Shown: positions 1,802 to 54,930 of the stretch, piece by piece | Numbering within the stretch: the stretch's first letter is position 1 | How the letters are laid out: every line of letters begins with the position of its first letter | DNA from: a virus | Virus record (IMG/VR): IMGVR_UViG_3300005825_000016 | Length of the DNA stretch: 64,000 nucleotides | Direction: 5' to 3' (one strand) | Notes under the pieces: model-generated | The model's database searches: none | What the model saw: the letters and a program-made list of their open reading frames with translations, nothing else | What the model was told of the DNA's origin: nothing | Translations under genes and position numbers: made by a program

Positions 1802-4800
1802 ATGGCAACAACAGCGGAAGAGGTGCAGCGTGCAATAGAGCGAGCACGAGCAGCGCAAGACAATGATGCTGTCAGCACGCTCGAAGGGTATCTCAAAACA
1901 TTACAGCCATCGCAACCAGCACAACCTGCTGGCGCGTTGCCCGGTAACGATGATCCTATTGGTCAGGGAGTCAGTGGCCCTGCTCTTACAAAGCCGCAGC
2001 GAGAGCGACGTATAAGTCAGCTCAGCTATGAGCATGACCAATCATTGCTTGGGTTGCCAGAGAATCATCCGCAGCGCCCCACTAAGGATGAGATCAACCA
2101 GTTTCGCAGTAAGCACGTAACGTCACAGACGCCAGATGGCCGTCCTGTTGGCGTGCGTGATATTTCCAAAGATGTTGTGCGTGATCCGAATACCGGAGAA
2201 GTTCGTTGGGCAGCGCTTTCTCCCGATCAGATAGATAGCGCTGAAGCAAAAAAGAAGGCTCGTGAAGATACGAAGAGAGCCACAGGTGGTGCATTGAAGT
2301 TTGGCACTATCAATCCAATTGGCGAATTCATTGACGCGAAAGACAAGGCCATTGAGTCTCGCAACATCACTCAGCAGATCATCTGGGAGCAGATGCCATC
2401 TGGTGAGAAGAGCCGCATCATTAATCGTGTTCGAGAAGAGCATGGCGACAAGGCTGCAATTCGCTTTGAAACTGATGCTGGTTTATTCCCATCCAATGAA
2501 TTCAAGAAGCTCATGGATGAGAACCCGGACAACAACAAGCTGCTTGACACCATGGAAGGTGATGAGTGGTGGGAAGAGCGTAAAGAAACAGTATCGAGAG
2601 TACTATCGAAGATCGGTAGCGCATGGAACTTTGGTGCCCCGATTCCTGCATTCGGAGCAGATACACCAACGGGTGCACTGACTGGTAAGGGTAAGTTCGA
2701 AGGCATTGACTACGCAGGTAAGGATGCACCTTTGTATGCCGGTGCGTCAGAGGATATTCGTGAGTGGCGAAGCGAAGCGAAGAGTGGTGGTATCGGTCTG
2801 TATGAAAACGTACTGAAGCCGTTACTTACAAGCAAGGAAGGGCTGACACCGGGTGAGCGTGTAATCAAAGCCGCTCAGACGATCAAGGAAGAGGCGTACA
2901 CAGCTGAACAGTTGAAGTCTTCTCAGAAGCCGTTTATTCCAGAAGGTAAAACGGTTACGGATATGTTTTCGTCCGACTTCTGGACAGACCCAAATACCAA
3001 GATGCCATGGAATGACTGGACTGGGTTCTACCTGACATTCATGGAGAACGCACCACAAATCGCAGCGAGCGTTGGCGTAACGCGAGTTGCTGGTGGTATT
3101 GGCGCTCGACATGCAGCTGCTGCGAATACAGGCCGTAGGCTACAGGACATTGAGGCTGCTCGGAAAAAATACGCTGGGCTTTATGGTGTTGCTGGTGGTG
3201 GATCGACCGAAGGTTTTCTGATTCACAATAATGTTGCACGTGAAGTTGGTCAGTCATTAGCCGAAGTTCCCATGGAGATATGGCGCGAAGATCAGACCTT
3301 CAATGATCTTGTTGCTGCTGGACTCAATGAGGAAGAAGCTAAGCAGCTACTAACTCAGGATGCAGCGAGCGCAGCTGGCACTACGGCGTTTGCTGTTGCT
3401 GGTTTGGCTGGTGGCGCTCCTATGGGTTACATGATAGGTCAATCAGGAGCAGGTCGTCTTGCGAGTAAAGCCACGGCTGGTCGCGTTGCAACGGCAGCTC
3501 TCGGTGAGCCACTTCAGGAAGGTACGCAGGAAGTTATCGAAGGTGAGATCAGCGACATAGCGATTGCTGGTATTGACCCAGACAATCCGATCTTCTCCCA
3601 AGAGAACCGCAGGCTGGAGCGATTTGCTGGTGGTGCGTTTGTTACCGGACCAACTGGTATTGGCGCACTCGCAACTATTGAGTACGGTAAGCCAGCTGGA
3701 TATCAGAAGGCAGATGTCGAAGCTGCCACGGCTGCAAAGACCATGATGGATGCCGTGAACGAACGGTACAAGCTGGAATTAAAACTCAGCGATCCAGAGT
3801 ATCGTACAAACACCGAGCCTATGGTCAGGCTCAAGAACATGCAAAAGCTGGAAAATCTGCAACGCACAGAAGCAGAGACCGTTCTTAAATCAGCGAAAGT
3901 CCTCAAGGGTTATCTTGCAGATAATCCATCGCAGACATCTAAGGTAGAAGCAAAGCGGCTTGCCACCATGGAGATGCAGGCGAACGCTACGTTGACTGAT
4001 ATTGCCGTTGCGCGATCACGCAGGCAGACGGTCTCTGAGATGGCAGAAGAGCAAGAGAACATCTTGATGGAACGAGCGATGATTCAGCAGCGCGTTGCTG
4101 ATGATCTCATCTCTCTTGAAGATATCAATCGACAGGTCGCAAACATCGAAGCTGTTCAAAACAACGAAGCCGTAAGTGAGGAAGCATATGAAGAGCTGGT
4201 AAAGGAAGGCTATGGTCGCTGGACGAATCAGGCGCAGGAAAAGTTTGTCATCAAGCCGAAGGGTAAGCGAGCACTGAATCTGCTGAACCAGCAAAGCCGT
4301 CATCTTTCAACAAGGATCAAGCAGGGCTACACAGGAACTGATCGACGTAATCCACTGAACCAGATGAAGCGTGATCTGGTGGATTCGGCTGGTCCGGTCG
4401 AACGTGAGCAGATGCTTTATACGGACAACCTCACTGGCGCTCAGAACCGTAGGGCATTTAAGGAGCGCAGCGCAGATGCCAAGGCAGTTGCTGCTGTAGA
4501 CGTAGATTCACTGGCATGGGTGAATGATCATATGACCCATGCGGCTGGCGACAGGCTGCTGGTGACCGTAGCAGACGCCATAGGCTCTCAGAACGGTGTA
4601 GAGGTGTTCCGGCTCGGTGGAGATGAGTTCGCGGTAACTGGAGCATCTCAGGAAGCCTTGGAGACAGCTTTACAAGCAGCAGCCAAGGTACTTCAGAGTT
4701 CCCCTATTGCTGACGCTGAACAAGAGGTTCGTCCTACCATTACATGGGGCAAGGGTGAAACTTACGAGGCTGCTGACAAAGAGGCCGGTAGCAGAAAAGC

Positions 4801-7800
4801 TGAGCGCATCCAGAGGGGTCAGGTGGCGTCTCGTAAGGATAAGCCAGCGTCATGGTCTGCTCGTGCGCAGCTTGGGCTGTTTCATTGGACTGGAGAAAAT
4901 GCTAACCAGAAGTTCTTTGTGCAACATGCCATACAAAACGGTTTACAGGTTGGAAGTGAAGCATCGTTCTCAATAAAGCAAAAGGTCAGGCGGGATGGGT
5001 CAGCGTTAGCGAATCAATCAACGATAACCATTACTGGTCGTGTTGCTGAAGTCTTTAAGAAAGAAAACGAGATTGCTATCCAGACAGCTAACGGTAGCAA
5101 ATTGTATTTTACTAGCCGTGGATGGCTGAAGAGAACTGGCAAACACAAGTTGTCAGCTACAGAAGAGCCTAGCCTTGCATATCAAGTCGAGCGCTCTTTG
5201 CAGCCAGTTGGTACTCGCCCACAGAAGAAAGCATTCAACGAATGGCTGGCGAACAATCCCGGAAAACCTATTAAGGAATACACCGGACCAAGAGTAAAGT
5301 TTGGTGGCATCAGTAATGTAGGGGATGCATCAGTAAGGATTTCATCATTTACTGACGTAGGTGAAAACAAGGGTCTATTCCAGCTCGACAAAGGTGCGGT
5401 ATTTCCACATAAGTGGTCACAGGTTTCGCATCTCGTGAAGCGTGGATCAAGTGTTGAGGTTTTGACACCTGATGGTGCAGAGTGGGGCATTGTTACTAAG
5501 GTTAAGAATGCCGGACGTGACGGCAAACGACCAAGAGTAACAGTAAACATTGATGGTCGTGTTTTCACTTTTAACCCAGACAGAAATCATCTCATTACGC
5601 ATGGAATTGATACAGCTGATTTTGTTTGGATTACTGGTTGGGAAGAATACAGCGATCCATTGTATGGCGCTTTGCCGCAAATAGTTCCTGATGTGCAGAT
5701 TGGTCATGTTGTTAATGAAGGAGAGATTATTGCCGATCTCTACAAAGAGAGCGCTGTTCAGAAGCAGCAACAGCTTGCGTGGTGGACTAATGACTACCCG
5801 GAGTGGCACCCGACAGTACCGTATGTTCCACCACTATCAAAGGTTAGTGAAGACGTTCGGCTTGAAGCGGAAGCGCTGAAAGATTATTTGACTCGTGGGT
5901 ACAGCAATCTGCCGGAAATCAACATGATCTACGATCTGGCCGAGACACCTGAAACGGTGAGAGCGCAGATCATTGCCGAGGGTGCGTCTATTCACGGTGT
6001 CCACGGATACATGAACCACATTAATCCGAAGGATGGCATCTATATATTTGTCCCGAACATTTATCGTGGAAGTAAAAACAATCTTGAGAGCGGCATCACT
6101 GAGACATTGCTGCACGAGATGATCGGCCACTATGGAGTACGTGGATTCTTCGGTAATGAAGCGAAACTTCGGGAGATGATGAACGAGCTGGTTGATGCGT
6201 TCCCGAAAGTTGCCGATGCTCGCGCCCGTCACCTAAAGTTAAATAAAGCAATCCCGAATCATAAGCAGCTTCTTGGTGAAGAGATGATTGCTTATTTGGT
6301 TGGTGAACACGCCAGCGGCAAGGTCAGTCTGAACAAAAAGCAGAAAGGCGTGATCGAAAAAATCATCAGCTGGATACGTCAGCTGCTGGTCAGGATGCGC
6401 TTCATTAAGGGTAATGAAGTTGACTTCTGGAATGACGCGAGAGTAAGAAGGCTGGTTTCTCGCTCTTACGATTTCGTTCGCAATGGCAAGGGGTTCGAGT
6501 GGACCGCGCTCACTGGTGAGGTTATTAGGTTCGATACACCGCTTCAGATGCGTGACGGAGATATATTCCAGCAAGGCGTTGTTACGGCGATTACGACAGC
6601 TACCGAAAAAATCACAACGAAACAGCAAAAGCAAAAGCACGCGAAGCAGTATGGTGGTGTTGAGAACGTGCCACAAGAAGTACCAATGTTTCCAGAGAGC
6701 GCCAGCCCAAATATCTATCGGTTATCATTGCAAACAGCGGTTAAGGCTGGATACATCTCCAAGATGGAAATGAAGTACTCTGGTCTTGACGAGAGTGGCA
6801 GCGACTATGCGCTTCTTCGTGACGCGAAGTACAATGATATCAAATCTTTAATGTTGGCAACGGAAGAAATAAATCCTCGTGATTGGTATAAAAATGTACT
6901 TCCATTTGGATTGGCAAAAGAAGTTGATGCGCTTTACGAGACGATGGATAACAGCACTATGGTTGGTCCACTTATCCCGGAAGCGAGAGCAGAGGTTTAT
7001 CGCGGTGTTATTGATCAAGAGGCATATAACAATGCGACAAATCGTATCCAAGAAATCATGGATATGCCAATTGATCAGAAGAATGCCACGATCAGCAAGA
7101 AGATTTTACTTGCTCACGCTGCAAGCAATAAAGCACTGCGTATCAACGTTATACGTCAGGGTGGACATCCTAATTTGGAATACTCAACGGTTGCTCAAAT
7201 CTTATTTGGACCTGATGTTGATTTCGATAGCCTAACGGATTTTCAGACGGAGATGATTGATGCTGAAAAACGACGCATCAAAGATCGTGGTCCGTTCATC
7301 GGCTATAACGAAGAGCAGGATCGGTGGTTGGATTGGGCAAATTCAAGACATCAATATCGCGAGTATATTCCGCAGGGAGCAAAAGCCACTAATGACTATC
7401 GTGTTGCCTTAGTGCTACAGGAAGGCTCTCACGAAATGGGGTCAGTACCATCTGCTCACTGGGGTGTTCCGCACTTAATGCACATCAGAACTGCTGTGGC
7501 AGATATTGCTTCAATAGAAGGCGCTCCCGTACTCCCACCAGCACGAAATCCAGAAATGGAAGGCAAAGCGCTTTCTATGATTGAATTGCAAGCCAACTGG
7601 TTACAGGAGCTTCGGTACGCATATACGACTCCTTCGATGAGGGAAGACAGTGCAAGGCAATATGATTTCGACAAAAAAACCACAGTATCTTTGTCGATGG
7701 GGTTTGTAACTAGACTCAGTGAAGGCTTATGGGATTCTGTTGATAAGATGCTAAAGCCTATCTACAACGCGCCAACAGGTGCCTTAAAGCAAGAGTATCT

Positions 7801-10800
7801 GGAGTTTATTGAATCAAGGTATGGTCAGCCACTGGAAGAAATGTCCGAGGCTACAAAAAGAGAGGCATACACAAGATTCAATGACCACAAGCTAACGCCG
7901 ATTATAAATAAGATTTCCGAAGCGAAGGAGATCGCAAAATCTTTTGGAGCTGTTCGTCAAACATTCATGAACGACCTTCCCGGTCTTATGGATGCTCGTG
8001 TGTTTGATAGGCTCGACACCTATGCGGTATCTGAGGTAACAGAGCGAATTAGTGACGATTTGACTAATTTGATTAGTGGACTTCACCGTATGATCGAGGC
8101 ACCAACTCATCAAGAGTTGGTGGCAACTGTGGGTGAAATAAAATCAAGAGTTACTCGTAACCTTCATCGCCTTTCCGGCAGTTCAACAATTTCACGGTTG
8201 GCTTTTGCGAAACCAAAGATCGTTGAGATGGTTGGAGCAGTACTCGAAAAACTTGAGTTTAATGACATTCTTGACGTGGCTATGGAGCCACTTGATGCAG
8301 TTGAGCGAGTTGCAATTCGCATTCCGGTAGAGGCAATTAATGAGTATCGAGATGCCTCTAAAACACGACAAGATCCTTCGCAAATTATCATGCTAAATAT
8401 CCTATCGAACAGCAGGCTTCTTGATGCTGGTATAAACCCCAATGGGATGCACCTTCAGTTCGATCAAGAAACTGATCCAAATTACTTTGAGATCACAGCA
8501 GCTGGCACAAAAGAGCATTTAACAGTATTAAGCGAGAAGCTACCGAATCTAATAAGAACCTATGTTAGCTCAACTGGTCCGGTAAGTTTTGAAAACTGGC
8601 TTAGCAGTACAGCAACTAGTAACGCACGAGAACGTAATTCTAGCGAAGTTACGTGGGATGAAGTTAAAGAAGAATTTGGATTTACCGAGGTAAACCTCGA
8701 TGATCCTAGTCATGATGAACTTAGTCTTTTGCGAGAACATAGTGTTCAAACGTATGAGCAGTTCGAGACCTATGAGTTCGATGACATTATGGTTGATACC
8801 GTGAACTCAGCTTTCGAAAACATGGACTGGAGTGAAGTTTATAACGACGATGGTGAAGGCTTATGGCCCGGATCAACAGACTTCACGGAGCGAGTGGAAT
8901 TTGATGATGATGGTGATGCTGATACAGATAATGCAAGACAGTGGCTTAGTGATGCTCGCGAATCGTATCGAAGCAATGAGATGTTTGATGATGATTCCTT
9001 GCGTGACAGCGCATATGATGAAATCCGTGAACGTTGGGACTCATCACCGGCAGCTTTAATTCTTGGTGTTATACCAGTGGAGTGGGATGAGGACGGAGAA
9101 GTAACCGACTCCGTTGCGTTTCGCATCGCAGCTCAAAACTATGATGATTATTACGATGTCTTCATTAATGATGAAGAGGTTGCTAGTGAGGTAAATCTCA
9201 ATGATGCGCAGCAAAAAGCTATTAATGAGATTAGAGATTACTACAACGATAGAGGAATAATTCTTCCTCATGAGAGTCTTTTTAGCCCTACTGAAGACAT
9301 CGTTCCAGATAATTCTAATACTGATCTTGACACTGATCGGGTACAACCAGATTGGTTAAGTATTGCGAATCGAATTATTGATTCATCTGGTGTGATCTCT
9401 CTGCCACCGGAAAGTGGCGATAAGATATTTGAGCGTATGGTTTCTTACGAGAAAGCAAAAGAAGCCAGAAGGCAAAAGGGTATTGAGGAAAGAGTAATAA
9501 CAGATACTCCGCTGAAAGACGATAGCGTCTGGAGACCCATTGCTTTGAAGTACTTGCTTTCTGATGCTGTTCGCAGAGGGTTTCCTGCAATCATTTGGAA
9601 CAATGGACTGGCAAGCTCAAAGCGTGGTGGTAACTGGGGTGTTGAAGTTGCTCGACCAGTAAATCGTATTGTTTGGACGCAGGAGACAATGACTCTTCGT
9701 GGAGAGACCCACGATATGATCGTCATTCGCACTCCAGACTTGCCAAGCCCTATTGTGGTTGATGCGAGAAGGATGATTCCTATTCTCGGTCGAGATTTAT
9801 CGACACATATCATCGGTCAAATAAACGGGAAGATTCCTCTGCAACCAGAGGTTCAGGCGAGAGGGGAAATTATTGAAGGAGAAGCAGCAGAGGTTTCATT
9901 GCGAGATCATTTTCTTCTCTCAACGTCGCCAAGTGGCATTACTTCACTGCATCGTCGCAGCGATGGTGGATTCGTAGGTCTTGCTCGTGGAGAAGATGAA
10001 GTCCAAGCTCTTATGGAATCGCATATGGAATCGCATAGACCCTATCTGACTCGTCCAGCTGGATGGACAGAGGTTGAACCTGACCTGTTAGCTGACATTA
10101 ATCCTCTTGGTAGCGAAATTAAGATGACAGGTATCGTTACCGAGCAAAGTCTTGGCACAAAGATGCGCATCATCGCTGGAGGCCGAGAGCGCGATTACCA
10201 TCATACCTACGCCCAAGCAAAACAAGCATCAGCTCGCGAGTCTTATGAAGGAGTGATGCACCGAATATGGGAAAAAGAGCTGAAGAAGTACGGTGCAACC
10301 ATTCAAGAGGCTTGGGTAAAAGGAAACATTGATGATGCATGGAATAAAGAAGGTCAACCTATTAAAAAGATAGACACGCGATCTGAGCGTATAGCGGTAA
10401 CGCATGGAAAGGTTTCCATTGAAGAACTGAGAGGTGAGACTCACGGCTATATTGCTATGAGCGAAAGAAGTGGTTTACTCACTGAGCGCATTTTTGAAAG
10501 CTATGCTCGTGCATCTGAGTGGATGGAAGAGTGGAAAGATAATAATTTTGGGGAAGAAGGTGGCGTAATTAAAGTGTATTACGTCGCGATTAATGACAAG
10601 ATCGTTGAAGAATTCTCTGGTCCTGTTGCTCCGTTTCATTATGATCCAACACAAGACCCTGTACTTAAGGAAGCCGCTGAGAAAATTGGTTATGAAGATG
10701 TTTCATTCCGTGACAGATACAACAAGTGGCGTGAAGCATGGCGGGATAAATTCAATCAAGGAATGTTTGATCGCTTCCACGGTATTAAACGAGCACTTTC

Positions 10801-13426
10801 TTACGCTCATGAAACCAACAAGGGTTACATTCAAACTCGCCTTACTACGTCTCTTGATTCAGTGATGAAGTCAGTTATGGAATACGGCCCACCAGTGTGG
10901 TCTGGTGGAATCGTTCAGTCTGACGCAAAGATTGGCGGCTTTCTCGATATTCTCCAGCCAGTTATGGCGCAAATCGACCTGTGGGGCATGTACATGGCTG
11001 GAGTCAGGGCCAAGCGGTTACTTGCAGAGGGTCGAGAAAAACTTTTTAGCGAAGAACAGATCGACGCCATGGTTGCTCTTGGCGACAAGTATCCACAGTT
11101 TGCACGTGTTGCAGCGAAGTATGCGGAATTCAACAAGAAGATTCTTGACTTTGCTGAAGAGGCTGGCGTTATCAACCCGGATACCAGATCACTGTGGGAA
11201 AACGCCGACTATGTACCATTCTATCGCGTCGAGGATGAGAGGCTGGTAGGACCATTTTCTGGTGGGGCTGGTGTTGCGAACCAGCGGTCTCCGATCAAGC
11301 GACTGAAGGGTGGTGACGCTAATATCGGCAACGTCATTCACAACATCATGGTGAATATGACGAAGCTGGTTGATACGTCGATGAAAAACCAAGCCGCCCT
11401 TACCACGGTGGATGCACTACGTGGGTCTGGCATCGTGTCGAAGCAACCTATGACATTCTCGCAGCAGGTCATTCCACTGAATCAGGTGAAGAAGCTGCTA
11501 ATAGATCGCGGCATGAATCCAGAAACCATTCCGGTCGCGGCGCTTGAAGGTTTCCAGAAAATGTTCGCGGTGCAGCCGCCGGAAGGTCCGGGCGTGATCT
11601 CAATTCTGCGTGATGGCAAGAAGGAGTTCTATTACACGGATGATGATCTGCTGTACCGGGCGATGACCAACATTAATAAGAAGCACTGGGGTTCATGGAT
11701 GAATTTATTCCGTGCACCGAAGCGACTGTTGACGACAATGATCACGTTGGACCCCGGCTTCATGGCTGCGAACTATGTGCGTGACTCTTTGTCAGCTTTC
11801 GTTCTATCTCGCGATCATTTCATTCCTGTCGCATCAGGCATCAAGGGGTTTGGTCAGGCACTGGTTAAAGATAAGGCTATGCGTACCATGTTGTCTGCTG
11901 GTGCCGCATTCGAAAGCGGATACATCAATCAGTATGATCCGAAGTCAACTGATCGTGTGATCAAAGATGCTATGAAGAAAAAGACTTTCTCTCGCACGGT
12001 TCTGAATACGCCGAAGAAATTGTTCCAAGCATGGAAAGCGATTGGTTCAGCAACAGAGAACGCGAACCGTATGGCTGTATATAACGCAGCGATAGCGGCA
12101 GGTAAATCCGAGATGCAAGCTGTGTTCGAGGCCAAGGACTTAATGGACTTTTCCATGGGTGGAGATTGGCCTGCTGTCCAGTTCCTTATTCAGACTGTGC
12201 CGTTCATGGGCGCTCGTATGCAGGGTCTGCACCGACTTGGACGTGGGTTTGCTGAAAACCCAGCAGCCTTTCTGTTGAAGGGCACCATGGTTGGCATGGC
12301 TGGCATGGCGTTGTTTCTCACCTTCCGTGATGACGAGCGCTACAAAGAACTCGAAGAGTGGGACAAGGATACATACTTCCACTGGTGGATTGGCGACAAC
12401 CATTACCGTCTGCCGAAGCCGTTTGAGGTTGGTGCGATATTCAACACGATCCCTGAGCGGATCATGGAGTACGCAGCATCGAACGAGAAGGACGCACCGA
12501 AGCTGTTCTGGTCTCGCATGGGCCACATGTTCGGAGAGACGTTCAATATGAACCCTGTGCCGCAGACTCTTCGCCCGATGACGGAATCGTATTTCAACTA
12601 CAACTTCTTCGCAGGTCGATCTATCGTCAGCCCATACGAGGCTGATCGAATGGCACCTGAGCAGTACCGTTACTCAACCAGTCCAACCATGGTTGAACTT
12701 GGTCGCGCTCTACCTGCTGAGCTTGATGTTGCGAGCAGTAAAATCAGATCGCCGCTGCATCTTGCGAACCTCTTCTACGGCTATACAGGCACGCTCGGTA
12801 AGTATTTCCTGCTGGCATCGGATGCCGTGGTCAGGGATCAAATGGACTATCCGAATCCACCGGAGTTACGTAAGAGCGATTGGCCTGTGGTGAGTCGGTT
12901 CTTCCGTGGCAGTGAGCCGCGTCGCACCAAGTATGAAGAAGAGACCTATCGCCTGATCAAAAAGGTCAGCGAGATTCAAGGCTCTCTTCGCTTCCTTGAG
13001 AAGACAGAGCAAGAGGCTCGTTTCGAAGATATTCAGACTGAATGGGAGCCGTATATTCGAGTAGCGAAAGACCTTGAAGATGTTCGCGAAGATGTTAGTG
13101 ACATCAATGCTGCGATCATGAATATCTGGATGGACCCGGAAATGGACCCGAAGCAGAAGCGCATCGAAGTTGATTCGCTGCAAAAAGATAAGAACATGCT
13201 ATTTGAGCTTGGCTATGAATTGCGTCCGGGTGGTCCATTGAACACTGACGGTGAGCCTGTCACTCAGCAGATGATTAAAGAGCTGATTGATAACTTCGGT
13301 GTTGATGACCTGAGTGCAAAAGCGCTTGAGGGTAAAGCACCAGAAACGTTTGATTTGATCAGTGGAATAAACACACTTGGAACACGAGAGCTGCAACGTC
13401 TTGCTGAATACAGGGAGCAACAGTGA
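1802..13426 (+). CDS. giant polyvalent internal virion protein: GGDEF domain, zincin-like metallopeptidase, acidic tract, C-terminal LPD38
   Basis: 3874 aa. TDNLTGAQNRR...DVDSLAWVND...AAGDRLL...RLGGDEF (aa ~873-1005); LLHEMIGHYG...GEEMIAY (aa ~1438); RLPKPFEVG...NPVPQTLRP (aa ~3536, LPD38-type). Confidence 0.85.
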   Translation: MATTAEEVQRAIERARAAQDNDAVSTLEGYLKTLQPSQPAQPAGALPGNDDPIGQGVSGPALTKPQRERRISQLSYEHDQSLLGLPENHPQRPTKDEINQFRSKHVTSQTPDGRPVGVRDISKDVVRDPNTGEVRWAALSPDQIDSAEAKKKAREDTKRATGGALKFGTINPIGEFIDAKDKAIESRNITQQIIWEQMPSGEKSRIINRVREEHGDKAAIRFETDAGLFPSNEFKKLMDENPDNNKLLDTMEGDEWWEERKETVSRVLSKIGSAWNFGAPIPAFGADTPTGALTGKGKFEGIDYAGKDAPLYAGASEDIREWRSEAKSGGIGLYENVLKPLLTSKEGLTPGERVIKAAQTIKEEAYTAEQLKSSQKPFIPEGKTVTDMFSSDFWTDPNTKMPWNDWTGFYLTFMENAPQIAASVGVTRVAGGIGARHAAAANTGRRLQDIEAARKKYAGLYGVAGGGSTEGFLIHNNVAREVGQSLAEVPMEIWREDQTFNDLVAAGLNEEEAKQLLTQDAASAAGTTAFAVAGLAGGAPMGYMIGQSGAGRLASKATAGRVATAALGEPLQEGTQEVIEGEISDIAIAGIDPDNPIFSQENRRLERFAGGAFVTGPTGIGALATIEYGKPAGYQKADVEAATAAKTMMDAVNERYKLELKLSDPEYRTNTEPMVRLKNMQKLENLQRTEAETVLKSAKVLKGYLADNPSQTSKVEAKRLATMEMQANATLTDIAVARSRRQTVSEMAEEQENILMERAMIQQRVADDLISLEDINRQVANIEAVQNNEAVSEEAYEELVKEGYGRWTNQAQEKFVIKPKGKRALNLLNQQSRHLSTRIKQGYTGTDRRNPLNQMKRDLVDSAGPVEREQMLYTDNLTGAQNRRAFKERSADAKAVAAVDVDSLAWVNDHMTHAAGDRLLVTVADAIGSQNGVEVFRLGGDEFAVTGASQEALETALQAAAKVLQSSPIADAEQEVRPTITWGKGETYEAADKEAGSRKAERIQRGQVASRKDKPASWSARAQLGLFHWTGENANQKFFVQHAIQNGLQVGSEASFSIKQKVRRDGSALANQSTITITGRVAEVFKKENEIAIQTANGSKLYFTSRGWLKRTGKHKLSATEEPSLAYQVERSLQPVGTRPQKKAFNEWLANNPGKPIKEYTGPRVKFGGISNVGDASVRISSFTDVGENKGLFQLDKGAVFPHKWSQVSHLVKRGSSVEVLTPDGAEWGIVTKVKNAGRDGKRPRVTVNIDGRVFTFNPDRNHLITHGIDTADFVWITGWEEYSDPLYGALPQIVPDVQIGHVVNEGEIIADLYKESAVQKQQQLAWWTNDYPEWHPTVPYVPPLSKVSEDVRLEAEALKDYLTRGYSNLPEINMIYDLAETPETVRAQIIAEGASIHGVHGYMNHINPKDGIYIFVPNIYRGSKNNLESGITETLLHEMIGHYGVRGFFGNEAKLREMMNELVDAFPKVADARARHLKLNKAIPNHKQLLGEEMIAYLVGEHASGKVSLNKKQKGVIEKIISWIRQLLVRMRFIKGNEVDFWNDARVRRLVSRSYDFVRNGKGFEWTALTGEVIRFDTPLQMRDGDIFQQGVVTAITTATEKITTKQQKQKHAKQYGGVENVPQEVPMFPESASPNIYRLSLQTAVKAGYISKMEMKYSGLDESGSDYALLRDAKYNDIKSLMLATEEINPRDWYKNVLPFGLAKEVDALYETMDNSTMVGPLIPEARAEVYRGVIDQEAYNNATNRIQEIMDMPIDQKNATISKKILLAHAASNKALRINVIRQGGHPNLEYSTVAQILFGPDVDFDSLTDFQTEMIDAEKRRIKDRGPFIGYNEEQDRWLDWANSRHQYREYIPQGAKATNDYRVALVLQEGSHEMGSVPSAHWGVPHLMHIRTAVADIASIEGAPVLPPARNPEMEGKALSMIELQANWLQELRYAYTTPSMREDSARQYDFDKKTTVSLSMGFVTRLSEGLWDSVDKMLKPIYNAPTGALKQEYLEFIESRYGQPLEEMSEATKREAYTRFNDHKLTPIINKISEAKEIAKSFGAVRQTFMNDLPGLMDARVFDRLDTYAVSEVTERISDDLTNLISGLHRMIEAPTHQELVATVGEIKSRVTRNLHRLSGSSTISRLAFAKPKIVEMVGAVLEKLEFNDILDVAMEPLDAVERVAIRIPVEAINEYRDASKTRQDPSQIIMLNILSNSRLLDAGINPNGMHLQFDQETDPNYFEITAAGTKEHLTVLSEKLPNLIRTYVSSTGPVSFENWLSSTATSNARERNSSEVTWDEVKEEFGFTEVNLDDPSHDELSLLREHSVQTYEQFETYEFDDIMVDTVNSAFENMDWSEVYNDDGEGLWPGSTDFTERVEFDDDGDADTDNARQWLSDARESYRSNEMFDDDSLRDSAYDEIRERWDSSPAALILGVIPVEWDEDGEVTDSVAFRIAAQNYDDYYDVFINDEEVASEVNLNDAQQKAINEIRDYYNDRGIILPHESLFSPTEDIVPDNSNTDLDTDRVQPDWLSIANRIIDSSGVISLPPESGDKIFERMVSYEKAKEARRQKGIEERVITDTPLKDDSVWRPIALKYLLSDAVRRGFPAIIWNNGLASSKRGGNWGVEVARPVNRIVWTQETMTLRGETHDMIVIRTPDLPSPIVVDARRMIPILGRDLSTHIIGQINGKIPLQPEVQARGEIIEGEAAEVSLRDHFLLSTSPSGITSLHRRSDGGFVGLARGEDEVQALMESHMESHRPYLTRPAGWTEVEPDLLADINPLGSEIKMTGIVTEQSLGTKMRIIAGGRERDYHHTYAQAKQASARESYEGVMHRIWEKELKKYGATIQEAWVKGNIDDAWNKEGQPIKKIDTRSERIAVTHGKVSIEELRGETHGYIAMSERSGLLTERIFESYARASEWMEEWKDNNFGEEGGVIKVYYVAINDKIVEEFSGPVAPFHYDPTQDPVLKEAAEKIGYEDVSFRDRYNKWREAWRDKFNQGMFDRFHGIKRALSYAHETNKGYIQTRLTTSLDSVMKSVMEYGPPVWSGGIVQSDAKIGGFLDILQPVMAQIDLWGMYMAGVRAKRLLAEGREKLFSEEQIDAMVALGDKYPQFARVAAKYAEFNKKILDFAEEAGVINPDTRSLWENADYVPFYRVEDERLVGPFSGGAGVANQRSPIKRLKGGDANIGNVIHNIMVNMTKLVDTSMKNQAALTTVDALRGSGIVSKQPMTFSQQVIPLNQVKKLLIDRGMNPETIPVAALEGFQKMFAVQPPEGPGVISILRDGKKEFYYTDDDLLYRAMTNINKKHWGSWMNLFRAPKRLLTTMITLDPGFMAANYVRDSLSAFVLSRDHFIPVASGIKGFGQALVKDKAMRTMLSAGAAFESGYINQYDPKSTDRVIKDAMKKKTFSRTVLNTPKKLFQAWKAIGSATENANRMAVYNAAIAAGKSEMQAVFEAKDLMDFSMGGDWPAVQFLIQTVPFMGARMQGLHRLGRGFAENPAAFLLKGTMVGMAGMALFLTFRDDERYKELEEWDKDTYFHWWIGDNHYRLPKPFEVGAIFNTIPERIMEYAASNEKDAPKLFWSRMGHMFGETFNMNPVPQTLRPMTESYFNYNFFAGRSIVSPYEADRMAPEQYRYSTSPTMVELGRALPAELDVASSKIRSPLHLANLFYGYTGTLGKYFLLASDAVVRDQMDYPNPPELRKSDWPVVSRFFRGSEPRRTKYEEETYRLIKKVSEIQGSLRFLEKTEQEARFEDIQTEWEPYIRVAKDLEDVREDVSDINAAIMNIWMDPEMDPKQKRIEVDSLQKDKNMLFELGYELRPGGPLNTDGEPVTQQMIKELIDNFGVDDLSAKALEGKAPETFDLISGINTLGTRELQRLAEYREQQ

Positions 13427-20253: not shown

Positions 20254-21900
20254 TTATCTACTGAACTCCGCAATGATGGGGAGCACGTTTGCATCGAATC
20301 CAACCACGTCTAACATGCCGGAATCGTTGGGGTCAGCGATGCTGAACCCGCTGCTCGTCACACCAATAACCACGAGCTTAGCATTCGGGTTATGGGTCTG
20401 TCGGTATGACACTAATGCCTGAGCTGGCTTAATAGTGCCTGCCCACGTCTCGTTATCAGTGATGACGATGAACGTGTCTACCATGATGTTGTTGGCCGCA
20501 GCGTATAGCATCGGCACAGCACAGTCGGTAGAGCCGAAGTTACGGTCATACACTTTCTTCATCACGCTTTCCATCGAATCATTTGAGCCGATGTTGAGAT
20601 CAACAAATCCAGCGAGAGCGTTTTCCTGATCATGACGACCATATCCGTAGCCTCGTGGTCCTGCCGTGAAACCATGAATAAAATGAACTGGCTCAGTACG
20701 AGCGATGATCATTGCCATGGCACCAGCTGCCTCTGCTGCGCTGATATTCGAATTACTAATTGATGAACTCATCGAACCAGACACATCAACACCAATCATG
20801 AATGCCTTACCAGTCGGCTCCACATTCACGAATGCCTTCTCGAAACCCTTATCGAGTGCAGAGATTACACGCGGGTCAGTCTTCCAAGTCAGTGAGCTGC
20901 GATAGCCACCACCAGAGCTGTAATTCTTTAACGCCAAGAGATAGTGCATCGGGTGAATCTTTGAGCGCTTGATCTGCTCATCACTCACCAGTCGATCCAA
21001 TACCATCTTGGTCTCTACAGACATCGGCTTCAGCGTACCGTTCGCCGTCATCTTGCCCAGCTGTCGGATGGTTGCCATGAGTGGCATCTTCTTCAGCAGC
21101 TCGCGGTTGACAGCCTCGTTCTTCAGCCACTCAGTCGGCAGCATCTCCCATGACAGGCTGTACTGCTCAACATGCTTAGCCATGTCAGCGCCTTCGTTCC
21201 ACTCAAGCGTCTGTGCATCGCAGTAGCCCCTGTAGATGCGCGGCAGCTTGCCGGTCGCAACCTTTGCTTCCATCGTCTCAGGGCGGCAGGTCACATCGAA
21301 CATCGCACGCTTCTGCTCGACAATCGTTACCGGGTGAGATAGACGCATGATGTCGCGATGCGACCAACCATCACGCTGACGATACTTCAGCAGCTGATAG
21401 GCAAGATTGTCCGGCTTCTGGTTGTTATACCAGCGCTGGAAGGCACGCTTTGTAGCGCGGCCCCATCCACCAAATGCCTCAACGAACTTCGCAAACATGA
21501 ACAGGTGCGTACCCGTTCGTGCTACCTCTGGCATCACACCAGATGCCAGCTTGCGAGTCTGCTCATCGCCCAGCTTCAAAGCTGCGGCAAGAACAAACAA
21601 GGCAGCATCATTCTTGTGTGCGCGACCGTCCTGTGAAATCTCCACAACACGATTGACCACACGAAGACCATCAGACTTGATCAGTCCGATTACTGCGTTG
21701 GCATTGTCCTTGGTCAGGCTCGACTCGGTGACGTAGTAAGTGCCACCCTCGGAACCGAGAATAAGAAACCGATCCAGACGATCCCAGTCATCCAGCTTGT
21801 GAACGAATCCACCTGCTGAGTTCTTGACCTCATCGGTACGACCGGGGGTGCGCTCGCGCTGCGGTGAGACGCGAGTTGATACGTGACGTGAATAATCCAT
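20254..21900 (-). CDS. rsr: Ro60 RNA-binding protein (TROVE + vWA)
   Basis: VKNSAGGFV...LDRFLILGSEGGTYY...RTGTHLF...KYRQRDGWSHRD...GVDVSGSM...TDNETW...VVGFD; start at ATG 21900 with AGGAG 7 nt upstream. Confidence 0.97.
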   Translation of the reverse strand: MDYSRHVSTRVSPQRERTPGRTDEVKNSAGGFVHKLDDWDRLDRFLILGSEGGTYYVTESSLTKDNANAVIGLIKSDGLRVVNRVVEISQDGRAHKNDAALFVLAAALKLGDEQTRKLASGVMPEVARTGTHLFMFAKFVEAFGGWGRATKRAFQRWYNNQKPDNLAYQLLKYRQRDGWSHRDIMRLSHPVTIVEQKRAMFDVTCRPETMEAKVATGKLPRIYRGYCDAQTLEWNEGADMAKHVEQYSLSWEMLPTEWLKNEAVNRELLKKMPLMATIRQLGKMTANGTLKPMSVETKMVLDRLVSDEQIKRSKIHPMHYLLALKNYSSGGGYRSSLTWKTDPRVISALDKGFEKAFVNVEPTGKAFMIGVDVSGSMSSSISNSNISAAEAAGAMAMIIARTEPVHFIHGFTAGPRGYGYGRHDQENALAGFVDLNIGSNDSMESVMKKVYDRNFGSTDCAVPMLYAAANNIMVDTFIVITDNETWAGTIKPAQALVSYRQTHNPNAKLVVIGVTSSGFSIADPNDSGMLDVVGFDANVLPIIAEFSR

Positions 21901-21912
21901 CTTACTTCTCCT

Positions 21913-21937
21913 ATTCGGCTCGTCCATCACGAGCGTT
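21913..21937 (-). promoter_or_regulatory. circularly permuted Ro-binding hairpin adjacent to the rsr Shine-Dalgarno
   Basis: AAC-GCUCGU-GAUGG-ACGAGC-C-GAAU then AGGAG; same GAGC-C-G / (C/U)GCUC bulged helix as the three Y RNAs. Confidence 0.65.
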
Positions 21938-21943
21938 AAAAAA

Positions 21944-22075
21944 TGAGCATGTTATTGGCAGCGAAAGTTACGCGCTCTCCCAAGCTGAGCTACACCCACC
22001 ATTGTAGGGTGGGCGACTGGATTTGAACCAGTGACCTCGATCTCCCAAAGATGATAACGCTATCCATCCGGCTCA
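21944..22075 (-). ncRNA. yrlA: YrlA-type tRNA-like Y RNA
   Basis: Terminal Ro helix UGAGC-C-GGAU/ACAU-GCUCA; T arm ACUGG-UUCAAAU-CCAGU, loop-closed acceptor CGCCCACC/GGUGGGUG, D arm UA-GCUC-AGCUUGGGA-GAGC in permuted order; directly upstream of rsr. Confidence 0.9.
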
Positions 22076-34236: not shown

Positions 34237-34389
34237 ATGTTATCATCTAATGGTAAAGCAGAAGCTGAGTATCAGTGCCTGCTTTGCCATTTTTTTTGGT
34301 CGCAAAAGCCTGAAATTGTCAGGTGTAAAAGATGCGGTCATATGTATGTTCAGTGGGTGAATTATGAAGAATGGAAAGAATGTCGCTAA
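34237..34389 (+). CDS. 50-aa Zn-ribbon protein (not in ORF track)
   Basis: YQCLLCHFFW...RCKRCGHMY; follows operator 34223-34231; stop overlaps the tRNA 5' end. Confidence 0.55.
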   Translation: MLSSNGKAEAEYQCLLCHFFWSQKPEIVRCKRCGHMYVQWVNYEEWKECR

Positions 34390-34456
34390 GGCCGATCATG
34401 GGATGGCAAGGGCTTTCAATCCCCGGAGCCGGGTTCGAGTCCCGGTAGCGACTCCA
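34382..34456 (+). tRNA. atypical tRNA, Glu(UUC)-like with a defective anticodon stem
   Basis: GUCGCUA/UAGCGAC acceptor, GCCG/UGGC D stem, CCGGG-UUCGAGU-CCCGG T arm, U73 and encoded CCA; anticodon region AAGGG-CUUUCAA-UCCCC pairs poorly; A at position 8. Confidence 0.7.
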
Positions 34457-53451: not shown

Positions 53452-54366
53452 ATGGCTATCATGAATCGCGCTCGCTTTAGAAAGCAGCTGCAAGAGGGTC
53501 TCAACACAGTATTCGGTTTGGAATACAAGCGTTATGAGCAGGAGTGGCGTCCTATCTTCGCTGTTGAGAATTCAACAAAAGCATACGAGGAAGATGTATT
53601 GCTCGCAGGTCTGGCAGGTGCTCCTGTTAAGGCCGAAGGTGCTCCGGTCGCTTATGATCAGGGTGGTGAAGCATTCGTCAGCCGCTACGTCCATGAGACA
53701 ATCGCTCTCGCTTTCTCCCTTACGGAAGAAGCCGAGGAAGATAATCTCTACGGATCAATCGGTTCCAAGTACTCGAAGGCTCTGGCACGTTCGATGCAGC
53801 ACACCAAGGAAGTTAAAGGTGCGGCAGTTCTGAACAACGGCTTCAATGCTGCCTTTCCGGGCGGCGACGGAGTTGCTCTGTTCTCGACGGCGCATCCGCT
53901 CTTCGGCGGCGGCACGCAATCGAACACGTTCACGACACAGGCTGACCTGTCTGAAACCTCTCTCGAAGAGGCGATGATCGCAATCAGCAAGTTTGTGGAT
54001 GAGCGCAGCATTCCAATTGCTGTGCGAGCACAGAAGCTGATCGTTCCACCTGATCTGATGTTCGTTGCTGAAAGGCTCCTGATGTCTCCGTATCGCCCCG
54101 GCACTGCGGATAATGACATCAATGCCATGAAGAAAATGGGCATGATCCCCGGCGGTTGCTACAAGAACCACCGACTTACTGACCCGAATGGTTGGTATTT
54201 GATCACTGATCAGCAGGACGGTTTGAAACACATGGTCAGAAAGAACATTCAACGTGGACTCGAAGGCGACTTCGAAACCGGCAACATGCGCTACAAGGCG
54301 CGTGAACGGTACTCGTTCGGATGGTCGGACTACCGTGGTGCCTTCGCAAGTTCTGGAAGCACGTAA
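53452..54366 (+). CDS. major capsid protein (Mu gpT-like, HK97 fold)
   Basis: KQLQEGLNTVFG...RYVHETIALAFSLTEEA.EDNLY...DFETGNMRYKARERYSFGWSD. Confidence 0.95.
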   Translation: MAIMNRARFRKQLQEGLNTVFGLEYKRYEQEWRPIFAVENSTKAYEEDVLLAGLAGAPVKAEGAPVAYDQGGEAFVSRYVHETIALAFSLTEEAEEDNLYGSIGSKYSKALARSMQHTKEVKGAAVLNNGFNAAFPGGDGVALFSTAHPLFGGGTQSNTFTTQADLSETSLEEAMIAISKFVDERSIPIAVRAQKLIVPPDLMFVAERLLMSPYRPGTADNDINAMKKMGMIPGGCYKNHRLTDPNGWYLITDQQDGLKHMVRKNIQRGLEGDFETGNMRYKARERYSFGWSDYRGAFASSGST

Positions 54367-54373
54367 GCGGTCT

Positions 54374-54474
54374 GAGCGACACTGGGGTTATACGGTGGCA
54401 AGCGCAGGTAATGCTGCGCGACCTAAGTAGCCCCGGTGTCAGCTCTCTAACTTTACCCTGAAGACTCGCAAGAG
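54374..54474 (+). ncRNA. candidate structured RNA with 11-nt tetraloop receptor and GNRA loops
   Basis: 13-bp GACACUGGGGUUA/UAGCCCCGGUGUC stem, UACGG/CCUAAG internal loop, GCGCAG/CUGCGC hairpin with GUAA, CUC-GCAA-GAG hairpin. Confidence 0.6.
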
Positions 54475-54489
54475 ACTGGAGACAGACAG

Positions 54490-54930
54490 ATGGGAACTCG
54501 ATCAACAGTAAAGGGATACTGGCGGCAAGCTGGTAACTCGATAAGCAACAACGCAACTCCGGGTGTAGTTCCACACTATGTTCCGGTTACCTTCGACGGC
54601 GCGGCAGCAAACACCACGGCAACTGGCGTGTATCTTCCGAAAGGCGCTATCGTTATTGGCGCGATGATTATCAGTGATCACACTGGTGGCACATCGCCTG
54701 CATTTGATGTTGGTATCACTGGCACAGCCGATGGCTACATCGACGGCTCAGTCAGTACGACCACAGCGCAGCTTGGCTTCTCAGGTCTCGGCTCTCTCGC
54801 TACTGGTGTAGCGTTGACGGCAGACACTGAAATCACTGCTGGCGATGATGGTACTGGCACAGCCGGTTCCGGCAACATCACCGTTCTCATCGAGGTGGTT
54901 ATGCAGGATGACGGCAAGCAGAACAACTAA
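54490..54930 (+). CDS. virion structural protein
   Basis: LPKGAIV...FDVG...YID jelly-roll-like pattern after MCP. Confidence 0.65.
   Translation: MGTRSTVKGYWRQAGNSISNNATPGVVPHYVPVTFDGAAANTTATGVYLPKGAIVIGAMIISDHTGGTSPAFDVGITGTADGYIDGSVSTTTAQLGFSGLGSLATGVALTADTEITAGDDGTGTAGSGNITVLIEVVMQDDGKQNN

What the first reader, a model, noticed from the sequence alone, without database searches (positions are those of the whole stretch)
54374..54474. Structured RNA after the major capsid gene with an 11-nt tetraloop receptor plus GNRA loops (natural tectoRNA-like)
Seen: a 13-bp stem, then UACGG/CCUAAG, an exact fit to the 11-nt receptor geometry (U.G, U.A, AA platform, two C-G). Above it are a GGCAA/G loop and a 6-bp helix capped by GUAA; a CUC-GCAA-GAG hairpin follows. 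Established: this receptor docks GNRA (best GAAA) loops in ribozymes and riboswitches, and RNAs carrying both parts can self-assemble. Inference: a compactly folded or multimerising RNA in the late operon, either tuning expression of genes downstream of MCP or acting in assembly or packaging.
Basis: partly seen in the sequence, partly recalled or inferred. Interest (0 to 1): 0.65.

Follow-up and report, generated by a model that had tools for sequence, protein, structure and literature searches.

The report
Phage RNA mimicking c-di-GMP riboswitch arm
Just after its capsid gene, this phage makes a folded RNA that copies, in inverted order, the docking arm of the bacterial c-di-GMP riboswitch; relatives carry antisense RNAs to the same riboswitch at the same spot, so the slot most likely holds RNAs that jam the host's riboswitches, a tactic I found no report of.

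Summary
The 13-bp stem and the exact 11-nt receptor are real and beyond chance. The GNRA partners are not: the cap loop is GUAAUG, and the downstream GCAA hairpin belongs to a separate ribosome-binding-site element whose loop does not track the receptor. Self-assembly is therefore unsupported.

The receptor plus its neighbouring U-A, GG bulge and C-G pair is a strand-swapped copy of helix P3 of the c-di-GMP-I riboswitch. It matches one real riboswitch at 19 of 20 bases and keeps both contacts that clamp P2 (receptor and G83). The bulge flank is invariant in 7 phage lineages, present in 14 of 15 receptor-bearing c-di-GMP-I riboswitches and absent from 14 Moco receptors.

The hairpin is one of several exchangeable cassettes in this slot. 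Another class is plainly antisense to the riboswitch core. The phage also carries an intact-looking GGDEF domain in its giant polyvalent protein.

Best reading (about 50%): a late, trans-acting decoy that docks on host c-di-GMP-I riboswitches and blocks their folding. Host, expression level and binding are untested, and six relatives have an altered 12-nt receptor. The scan had not noted this before.

The parts
53452..54366 (+). Major capsid protein gene (304 aa); the RNA follows its stop codon
   Evidence: Pfam PF25209 E 2e-12, PF10124; phrog_371; 55-56% identical to HTVC023P-type capsids
54374..54390 (+). Cassette basal stem, 5' arm (4 + 13 bp)
   Evidence: about 16-17 bp in most receptor-bearing relatives, with two-sided changes in class A
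54391..54395 (+). 11-nt receptor, UACGG strand (riboswitch positions 77-80)
54396..54399 (+). U-[GG bulge]-C: equivalent of riboswitch U81, R82, G83, C84; G54398 is the predicted G83 equivalent
   Evidence: invariant in 7 class A lineages; descriptor 14/15 c-di-GMP-I vs 0/14 Moco
54400..54419 (+). AA bulge and capping hairpin (6 bp, loop GUAAUG) standing where the riboswitch's three-way junction would be
   Evidence: length and loop vary among relatives
54420..54427 (+). G-A (riboswitch G56, A57) and the receptor's CCUAAG strand
   Evidence: 54419-54428 is 10/10 identical to riboswitch L440
54428..54445 (+). Cassette basal stem, 3' arm (A54441 bulged)
54446..54457 (+). Pyrimidine-rich linker; not a consensus terminator tail
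   Evidence: no terminator-like site; class A/B tails are U-richer than those of simple hairpins
54458..54492 (+). Probably a translational control site
   Evidence: present in nearly all relatives above about 77% capsid identity, with or without a cassette
54490..54930 (+). 146-aa gene after the spacer; possible capsid cement or decoration protein (weak lead)
   Evidence: no Pfam/PHROG hit; Atlas structure neighbours Mtd_N and DUF2793 at TM 0.61
4418..4759 (+). GGDEF (diguanylate cyclase-type) domain inside a 3874-aa LPD38 polyvalent protein (1802-13426); supporting context, not part of the RNA
   Evidence: PF00990 E 4e-9; GGDEF motif and metal aspartates intact, no RxxD site; found in 8 of 10 clade relatives

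Best explanation
The hairpin is a circularly permuted copy of helix P3 of the c-di-GMP-I (GEMM-I) riboswitch, displayed on a long rigid stem at the 3' end of the abundant capsid message. In the riboswitch, P3 clamps P2 through two contacts: receptor to GNRA loop, and bulged G83 to C44. The phage RNA keeps exactly these two surfaces and none of the ligand pocket. Shown by sequence: identity of the module, its conservation, no P2 partner in the phage DNA examined, exchangeability of the cassette, an antisense class in the same slot, and a GGDEF domain in the phage. Inferred: the RNA accumulates late, docks in trans on P2 of host riboswitches (most easily while they are being transcribed, when P2 exists and P3 does not yet), prevents the aptamer from closing on c-di-GMP, and so uncouples riboswitch-controlled genes (mostly surface adhesins in the Desulfobacterota sampled) from a c-di-GMP pool that the phage's own virion-type cyclase may raise.
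For: Window strands 54419-54428 and 54390-54399 match riboswitch L440 at 19/20; the best Moco match is 15/20. The flank descriptor G-R-CC / GG-Y-RG-C fits 14 of 15 receptor-bearing c-di-GMP-I riboswitches (the miss is a parsing error), 0 of 14 Moco receptors, and 7 of 7 class A phage RNAs, where those bases are invariant while stems change. In 61 genomes, 10 of the 11 helix-closed hits of an extended descriptor that I could inspect are c-di-GMP-I riboswitches. The receptor contact and C44-G83 are the two long-range contacts, and G83C abolishes ligand binding (PMC11705072; PMC3764141). Class D cassettes in the same slot are antisense to the riboswitch core: 16 shared conserved 8-mers against 1.4 +/- 1.6 in shuffles, a predicted 12+8-bp duplex for L043, and a 22-nt block identical in L043 and L515 whose flanks differ. 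Cassettes swap among close relatives; class A needs 4-6 changes on the capsid tree. No c-di-GMP-I aptamer or P2 half in the window or five related records. GGDEF domain in the window and 8 of 10 relatives.
Against: No binding, expression or host data. The host is unknown: one relative lies in a Desulfuromonadales MAG that has 11 such riboswitches, another in a Planctomycetota MAG. A single tetraloop-receptor contact is weak (Kd about 0.4 mM, PMC3575829) and must compete with the tethered native P3. Six of 7 class A relatives have an extra base in the platform strand (12-nt loop) of unknown binding. The GEMM-specific flank is only about 6 bases and was noticed after the fact; whole-cassette k-mer enrichment for class A is marginal (p about 0.02 at k=6, none at k=7-8). 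Classes B and C (12 lineages) have a receptor or receptor-like loop but not the G83 spacing. Secondary-structure cofolding gives class A no advantage over shuffles. GGDEF is also present in phages with a plain hairpin and was not found in the two class D genomes, so it does not track the cassette.
Confidence: 0.5

Rival explanations
1. Cis element of the capsid operon: the receptor docks a GNRA loop of the neighbouring E2 element (the GAGA loop over the Shine-Dalgarno, or the GCAA loop), compacting the 3' end of the capsid message and tuning translation or decay of the next gene.
For: The GAGA hairpin is present in 6/7 class A and 7/7 class B lineages; a tethered contact avoids the weak-affinity problem; basal stem length is conserved; a bound Vc2 aptamer can protect an RNA 3' end (10.1101/617340).
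Against: The GAGA hairpin is equally common without a receptor (26/34), and L019 has lost it yet keeps the module. E2's variable loop is often not GNRA in receptor lineages. In E2 the C after the stem lies 5-6 nt from the loop, against 9 for C44, so both contacts could not form. It does not explain the antisense class.
Confidence: 0.22
2. Captured riboswitch debris: fragments of host c-di-GMP-I riboswitches (for example across a tandem pair, which gives this strand order) recombined into the post-capsid hairpin and persist only as a stability or attenuator hairpin.
For: Adjacent tandem riboswitches exist in candidate hosts (G041:C76); plain hairpins do the job in 34 lineages; cassettes are gained and lost often.
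Against: Unpaired docking bases are invariant while paired stems change; the antisense block is conserved while its flanks diverge; plain hairpins show no riboswitch k-mer excess.
Confidence: 0.1
3. Binding site or decoy for a protein or for another GNRA-bearing RNA (for example domain 5 of a group II intron, by likeness to the kappa-zeta region).
For: The receptor has the strand order seen in group II zeta and lies beside a GNRA-like loop there (PMC3575829); 12-nt variants suggest relaxed loop specificity.
Against: No three-way junction in class A. The few zeta-like sites found in group II loci lack the U-GG-C/G-A flank (very small sample). No Rfam group II match.
Confidence: 0.1
4. Self-assembling tectoRNA or packaging RNA.
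For: An exact receptor and two GNRA loops (GCAA, GAGA) lie within 100 nt in the window; the GGCAA loop could fold GNRA-like; class C relatives carry both a GNRA hairpin and a receptor-like loop in one cassette.
Against: The cap loop is not GNRA; loop and receptor do not covary; the cassette is dispensable among near-identical phages.
Confidence: 0.08

Closest known systems
c-di-GMP-I (GEMM-I) riboswitch, Rfam RF01051, helix P3
   Same: 11-nt receptor followed by Y-R pair, RG bulge (G83) and C-G pair; 19/20 bases match L440; the same receptor variants occur (UACGG, CCUACG, CAUGG/CCUAAA, UAGGG).
   Different: Strand order is swapped; no P1, P2, G20, A47 or C92 pocket; lies 3' of a capsid gene rather than in a leader; no Rfam match.
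Phage RNA mimics: Racr solitary CRISPR repeats and pseudo-ToxI (from my own knowledge, not tested here)
   Same: A phage-encoded non-coding RNA copies part of a host RNA to jam a host system; variable between related phages.
   Different: Those occupy a host protein. Here the predicted target is another RNA's tertiary docking surface.
Engineered tectoRNA (GAAA/11-nt dimers)
   Same: Receptor displayed on a rigid helix for an intermolecular contact.
   Different: No GNRA one helical turn away on the same helix; the second contact is a bulged G.
Group II intron kappa-zeta region (PMC3575829)
   Same: Receptor in the same strand order next to an A-rich loop; docks a separate GNRA hairpin.
   Different: No junction, no intron; flanks differ in the few sites seen.
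Mu-gpT-DE motif (Rfam RNA downstream of gpT-like capsid genes; from my own knowledge)
   Same: Structured RNA after a gpT-like capsid gene.
   Different: No Rfam match even at E 10 or in 20 related loci.
GGDEF domains in phage polyvalent proteins (PMC5512222)
   Same: LPD38-type giant protein with a GGDEF domain, proposed there to interfere with host nucleotide signalling.
   Different: That paper does not mention riboswitches; no RNA partner was described.

Membership tests
11-nt GNRA tetraloop receptor | UA(N)GG / CCUAAG internal loop in a helix | tested here: met
   exact in the window with 13 flanking pairs; natural-type variants in class B/C; 12-nt form in 6 class A relatives
11-nt GNRA tetraloop receptor | Mg2+-dependent docking of a GNRA loop | not testable with these tools
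   needs probing or binding assay
c-di-GMP-I riboswitch (RF01051) | P3 with receptor and bulged G83 | tested here: met
   strand order swapped
c-di-GMP-I riboswitch (RF01051) | P2 with GNRA loop and C44 | tested here: not met
   P2 descriptor finds 29/39 riboswitches and nothing in the window
c-di-GMP-I riboswitch (RF01051) | Three-way junction pocket G20, A47, C92 with P1 | tested here: not met
   junction replaced by AA plus a hairpin; no cmscan match
c-di-GMP-I riboswitch (RF01051) | Ligand binding and gene control | not testable with these tools
   not expected for P3 alone
tectoRNA-like self-assembling RNA | GNRA loop and receptor in one unit, co-conserved | tested here: not met
   cap is GUAAUG/GUCGUG; E2 loop does not track the receptor
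Group II intron kappa-zeta | Three-way kappa junction within an intron domain 1 | tested here: not met
   no junction, no intron match
Hammerhead ribozyme (considered for E2's CUGANGA) | CUGANGA - stem II - GAAA core | tested here: not met
   stem is followed by AC, never GAAA
Intrinsic terminator | GC stem followed by a U tract | tested here: not met
   no site in the window; several relatives have U-rich tails, so partial termination is not excluded
Phage RNA mimic acting in trans | Binds and inhibits the mimicked host system | not testable with these tools
   inferred from the module, the antisense class and the missing cis partner

The most novel reading that the evidence does not exclude
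This phage clade runs a two-part attack on c-di-GMP signalling: a virion-delivered diguanylate cyclase, and a swappable slot after the capsid gene that expresses anti-riboswitch RNAs of several designs (a P3 tertiary mimic as here, receptor-bearing junction RNAs, and antisense RNAs), all aimed at the host's c-di-GMP-I riboswitches. That would be a natural case of one RNA inhibiting a riboswitch by tertiary mimicry.
Probability: 0.4. Interest if true: 0.92.

Novelty: categorically new. Interest (0 to 1): 0.78.

Why it matters
Riboswitches are known as targets of small molecules, and I found no report of a viral RNA that attacks one (the library lacks most subscription journals). A phage RNA that copies a riboswitch's own docking arm would be a new counter-regulatory mechanism. 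It would imply that riboswitch-controlled genes matter to infection, and it would give a natural design for trans-acting riboswitch inhibitors. It is cheap to test: a 70-nt RNA, a well-studied riboswitch (Vc2), and a ready compensatory test at G83-C44. Even if the trans function fails, the slot is an uncatalogued set of structured phage RNAs built from riboswitch parts.

Tried and rejected
Rfam: nothing for the element at E up to 10, in the whole window (one tRNA only), or in 20 related loci; only a weak reverse-strand c-di-GMP-I hit on class D (11.7 bits, E 6.1).

Pattern scans: two were too loose and returned mostly chance hits. Class A and B patterns found nothing real outside this clade in IMG/VR. 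The class A pattern gave 2 hits in 301 Desulfobacterota genomes, about what chance would give, not examined further.

RNA reads: four estuary metatranscriptomes hold the region as contigs at flat depth (up to about 7), two of them bridging the spacer. This says nothing on level, strand or ends, and DNA carry-over is not excluded.

Cofolding of cassettes with riboswitches did not separate them from shuffles on average, class D included; the method cannot score tertiary docking. The longest-duplex comparison against Moco was only modestly discriminating.

Links of classes B, C, E and L003 to the riboswitch (UGCC junction, P2-like hairpins, a 10-nt antisense to P2 in two class B RNAs) are suggestive only (p 0.02-0.09 at best in several tests) and are not counted as evidence.

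Twister, hairpin, pistol, hammerhead and kink-turn readings were rejected by inspection. Host assignment failed. No whole genome is held for the window, so about 5-10 kb of the phage were not seen. Earlier scan notes had nothing on this DNA.

Full report
1. The observation. The spacer 54367-54489 lies between a 304-aa major capsid gene and a 146-aa gene, in a phage whose capsid is 55-56% identical to HTVC023P-type phages. It holds a 17-bp stem with one bulge, closed by UACGG/CCUAAG, the only well-supported 11-nt receptor in 64 kb; simulated windows gave none with 9 or more flanking pairs. Above it are a U-A pair, the GGCAA/G loop and a 6-bp helix. The cap is GUAAUG, not GUAA. Nearest-neighbour folding prefers a shifted register for the receptor's C-G pairs; the receptor fold is 1.1-2.1 kcal/mol higher. 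Nothing in Rfam matches.

2. Two elements, not one. I collected about 60 distinct spacers from relatives with 77-100% capsid identity. Nearly all end in element E2: CUGANGA, a variable hairpin, and a GAGA hairpin holding the Shine-Dalgarno of the next gene. The variable stem takes many compensated forms, and the second hairpin is extended with pairing kept in L019, L041 and L044. A 3-bp closing helix is doubtful (broken in several lineages; probability 0.0 in the window). Its loop is GNRA in 25/33 lineages without a receptor, 5/7 class A, 1/7 class B and 3/5 class C, so it does not track the receptor.

3. The cassette slot. Upstream of E2 most lineages (34) have a plain hairpin. About 26 have a larger cassette. 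Class A (7, including the window) is receptor + U-GG-C/G-A + capping hairpin. Class B (7) is receptor + UGCC three-way junction. Class C (5) is a receptor-like loop with a junction that includes a GNRA hairpin. Class D has 4 members, and a few are singletons. On a capsid-gene tree the classes are scattered, class A needing 4-6 changes, and close sisters differ: L018/L388, L026/L029, L013/L032. This is an exchangeable, non-essential cassette.

4. What class A is. I fetched 40 c-di-GMP-I riboswitches and 22 Moco RNAs from Desulfobacterota. With strand order swapped, the window's 54419-54428 and 54390-54399 match P3 of riboswitch L440 at 19 of 20 bases; the one difference (A82 to G) is a natural variant, and the best Moco match is 15. 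The flank G-R-CC / GG-Y-RG-C occurs in 14 of 15 receptor-bearing c-di-GMP-I riboswitches and 0 of 14 Moco receptors. In 61 genomes, 10 of the 11 inspectable helix-closed hits of an extended form are these riboswitches. All 7 class A RNAs have the flank, invariant, while basal stems change with two-sided substitutions. In the riboswitch this arm makes the two long-range contacts to P2, receptor to GAAA and G83 to C44, and G83C abolishes ligand binding (PMC11705072; PMC3764141). The phage RNA keeps these surfaces and lacks P1, P2 and the pocket. It is not a riboswitch but looks like half of one. No P2 half was found in the window or five related records. Weak points: the diagnostic flank is short and was recognised after the fact, overall k-mer enrichment for class A is marginal, and six relatives have a 12-nt receptor variant.

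5. Independent pointers to the same target. Class D is antisense to the riboswitch core: 16 conserved 8-mers against 1.4 +/- 1.6 in shuffles, none on the sense strand, and no excess in plain hairpins. L043 is predicted to pair 12+8 bp with a real riboswitch. A fourth member found by pattern shares a 22-nt block with L043 while its flanks differ. Separately, the window's 3874-aa LPD38 protein contains a GGDEF domain with the signature, the metal aspartates and the guanine-binding N and D intact, no RxxD site, and the usual lysine after the first aspartates only in some copies. It occurs in 8 of 10 relatives, with or without a cassette, and was not found in two class D genomes. Such proteins are predicted to be packaged and injected (PMC5512222). 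The domain shows the clade engages cyclic-dinucleotide signalling; it does not show that the RNA does.

6. Mechanism (inferred). Co-transcribed with the capsid gene, the cassette should be abundant late. It would dock on P2 of host riboswitches, most easily on nascent transcripts before native P3 is made, and keep the aptamer from closing. The genes behind the best-matching riboswitches are mostly large surface proteins with Ig, fn3, cadherin, lectin or beta-helix domains. The effect could be to stop the infected cell building adhesins that trap progeny or admit competitors; that purpose is a guess. The main difficulty is energetic: one loop-receptor contact has Kd near 0.4 mM (PMC3575829). 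I put the identity of the module as riboswitch P3-like at about 0.8 and the trans-antagonist function at about 0.5. Rivals: cis docking on E2 (0.22), inert captured debris (0.10), another partner (0.10), self-assembly (0.08).

7. Limits. Host unknown; transcription not shown; no 3D RNA modelling was available; control families were Moco and a handful of group II sites only; classes B, C and E are unexplained.

8. Novelty. No Rfam family, no paper and no earlier scan note describes this. The nearest concept is phage RNA mimicry of CRISPR repeats or ToxI (my own knowledge), which targets proteins. I rate it categorically new on the strength of the structure and the antisense class, with function unproven. 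Interest 0.78.

Noticed in passing
window 1802-13426 (+), domain at 4418-4759: 3874-aa polyvalent protein with LPD38 and an intact-looking GGDEF domain lacking the inhibitory RxxD site; conserved in 8 of 10 relatives. A likely virion-delivered diguanylate cyclase.
   Followed up: partly
window 20254-21930 (-) and 21952-22048 (-): Ro60/TROVE gene with a YrlA-like Y RNA directly upstream (29.8 bits, E 0.001, below Rfam's cut-off).
   Followed up: partly
window 54458-54492 (+): Element E2: an uncatalogued, clade-wide two-hairpin motif over the ribosome-binding site of the gene after the capsid, with a hammerhead-like CUGANGA but no GAAA. Probably a translational operator; ligand or protein unknown.
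   Followed up: partly
L043:3915-3995, L033:916-1015, L399:2416-2500, L515 (reverse strand near 3284-3302): Class D cassettes: antisense to the J2/3-P3 core of c-di-GMP-I riboswitches, with part of the complement in predicted loops. The clearest case for a first experiment.
   Followed up: yes
L011, L013, L014, L015, L017, L022, L026 (after the capsid stop): Class B cassettes: receptor, UGCC junction, a variable hairpin and a conserved hairpin with a C-NNNN-U loop. In L017 and L026 a 10-nt stretch is the exact complement of the riboswitch P2 5' strand.
   Followed up: partly
L009, L012, L021, L389, L398 (after the capsid stop): Class C cassettes carry both a GNRA hairpin resembling the top of riboswitch P2 and a receptor-like loop; they could dock on themselves or reciprocally on a riboswitch. 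L009 holds a second, class E cassette in tandem.
   Followed up: partly
L018:3916-3985, L003:1291-1350, L034:3916-4005: Further unexplained cassettes: a three-way junction with a GAGAA loop, a long hairpin resembling the riboswitch 3' end, and an atypical class A-like stem.
   Followed up: no
window 34382-34456 (+): tRNA-Glu(UUC) with a low Rfam score (34.9 bits).
   Followed up: no
L362 / G001:C134 (64,954 bp): A near-complete relative (96% capsid identity, plain hairpin, GGDEF present) is binned in a Desulfuromonadales MAG that has 11 c-di-GMP-I riboswitches; weak host lead.
   Followed up: partly
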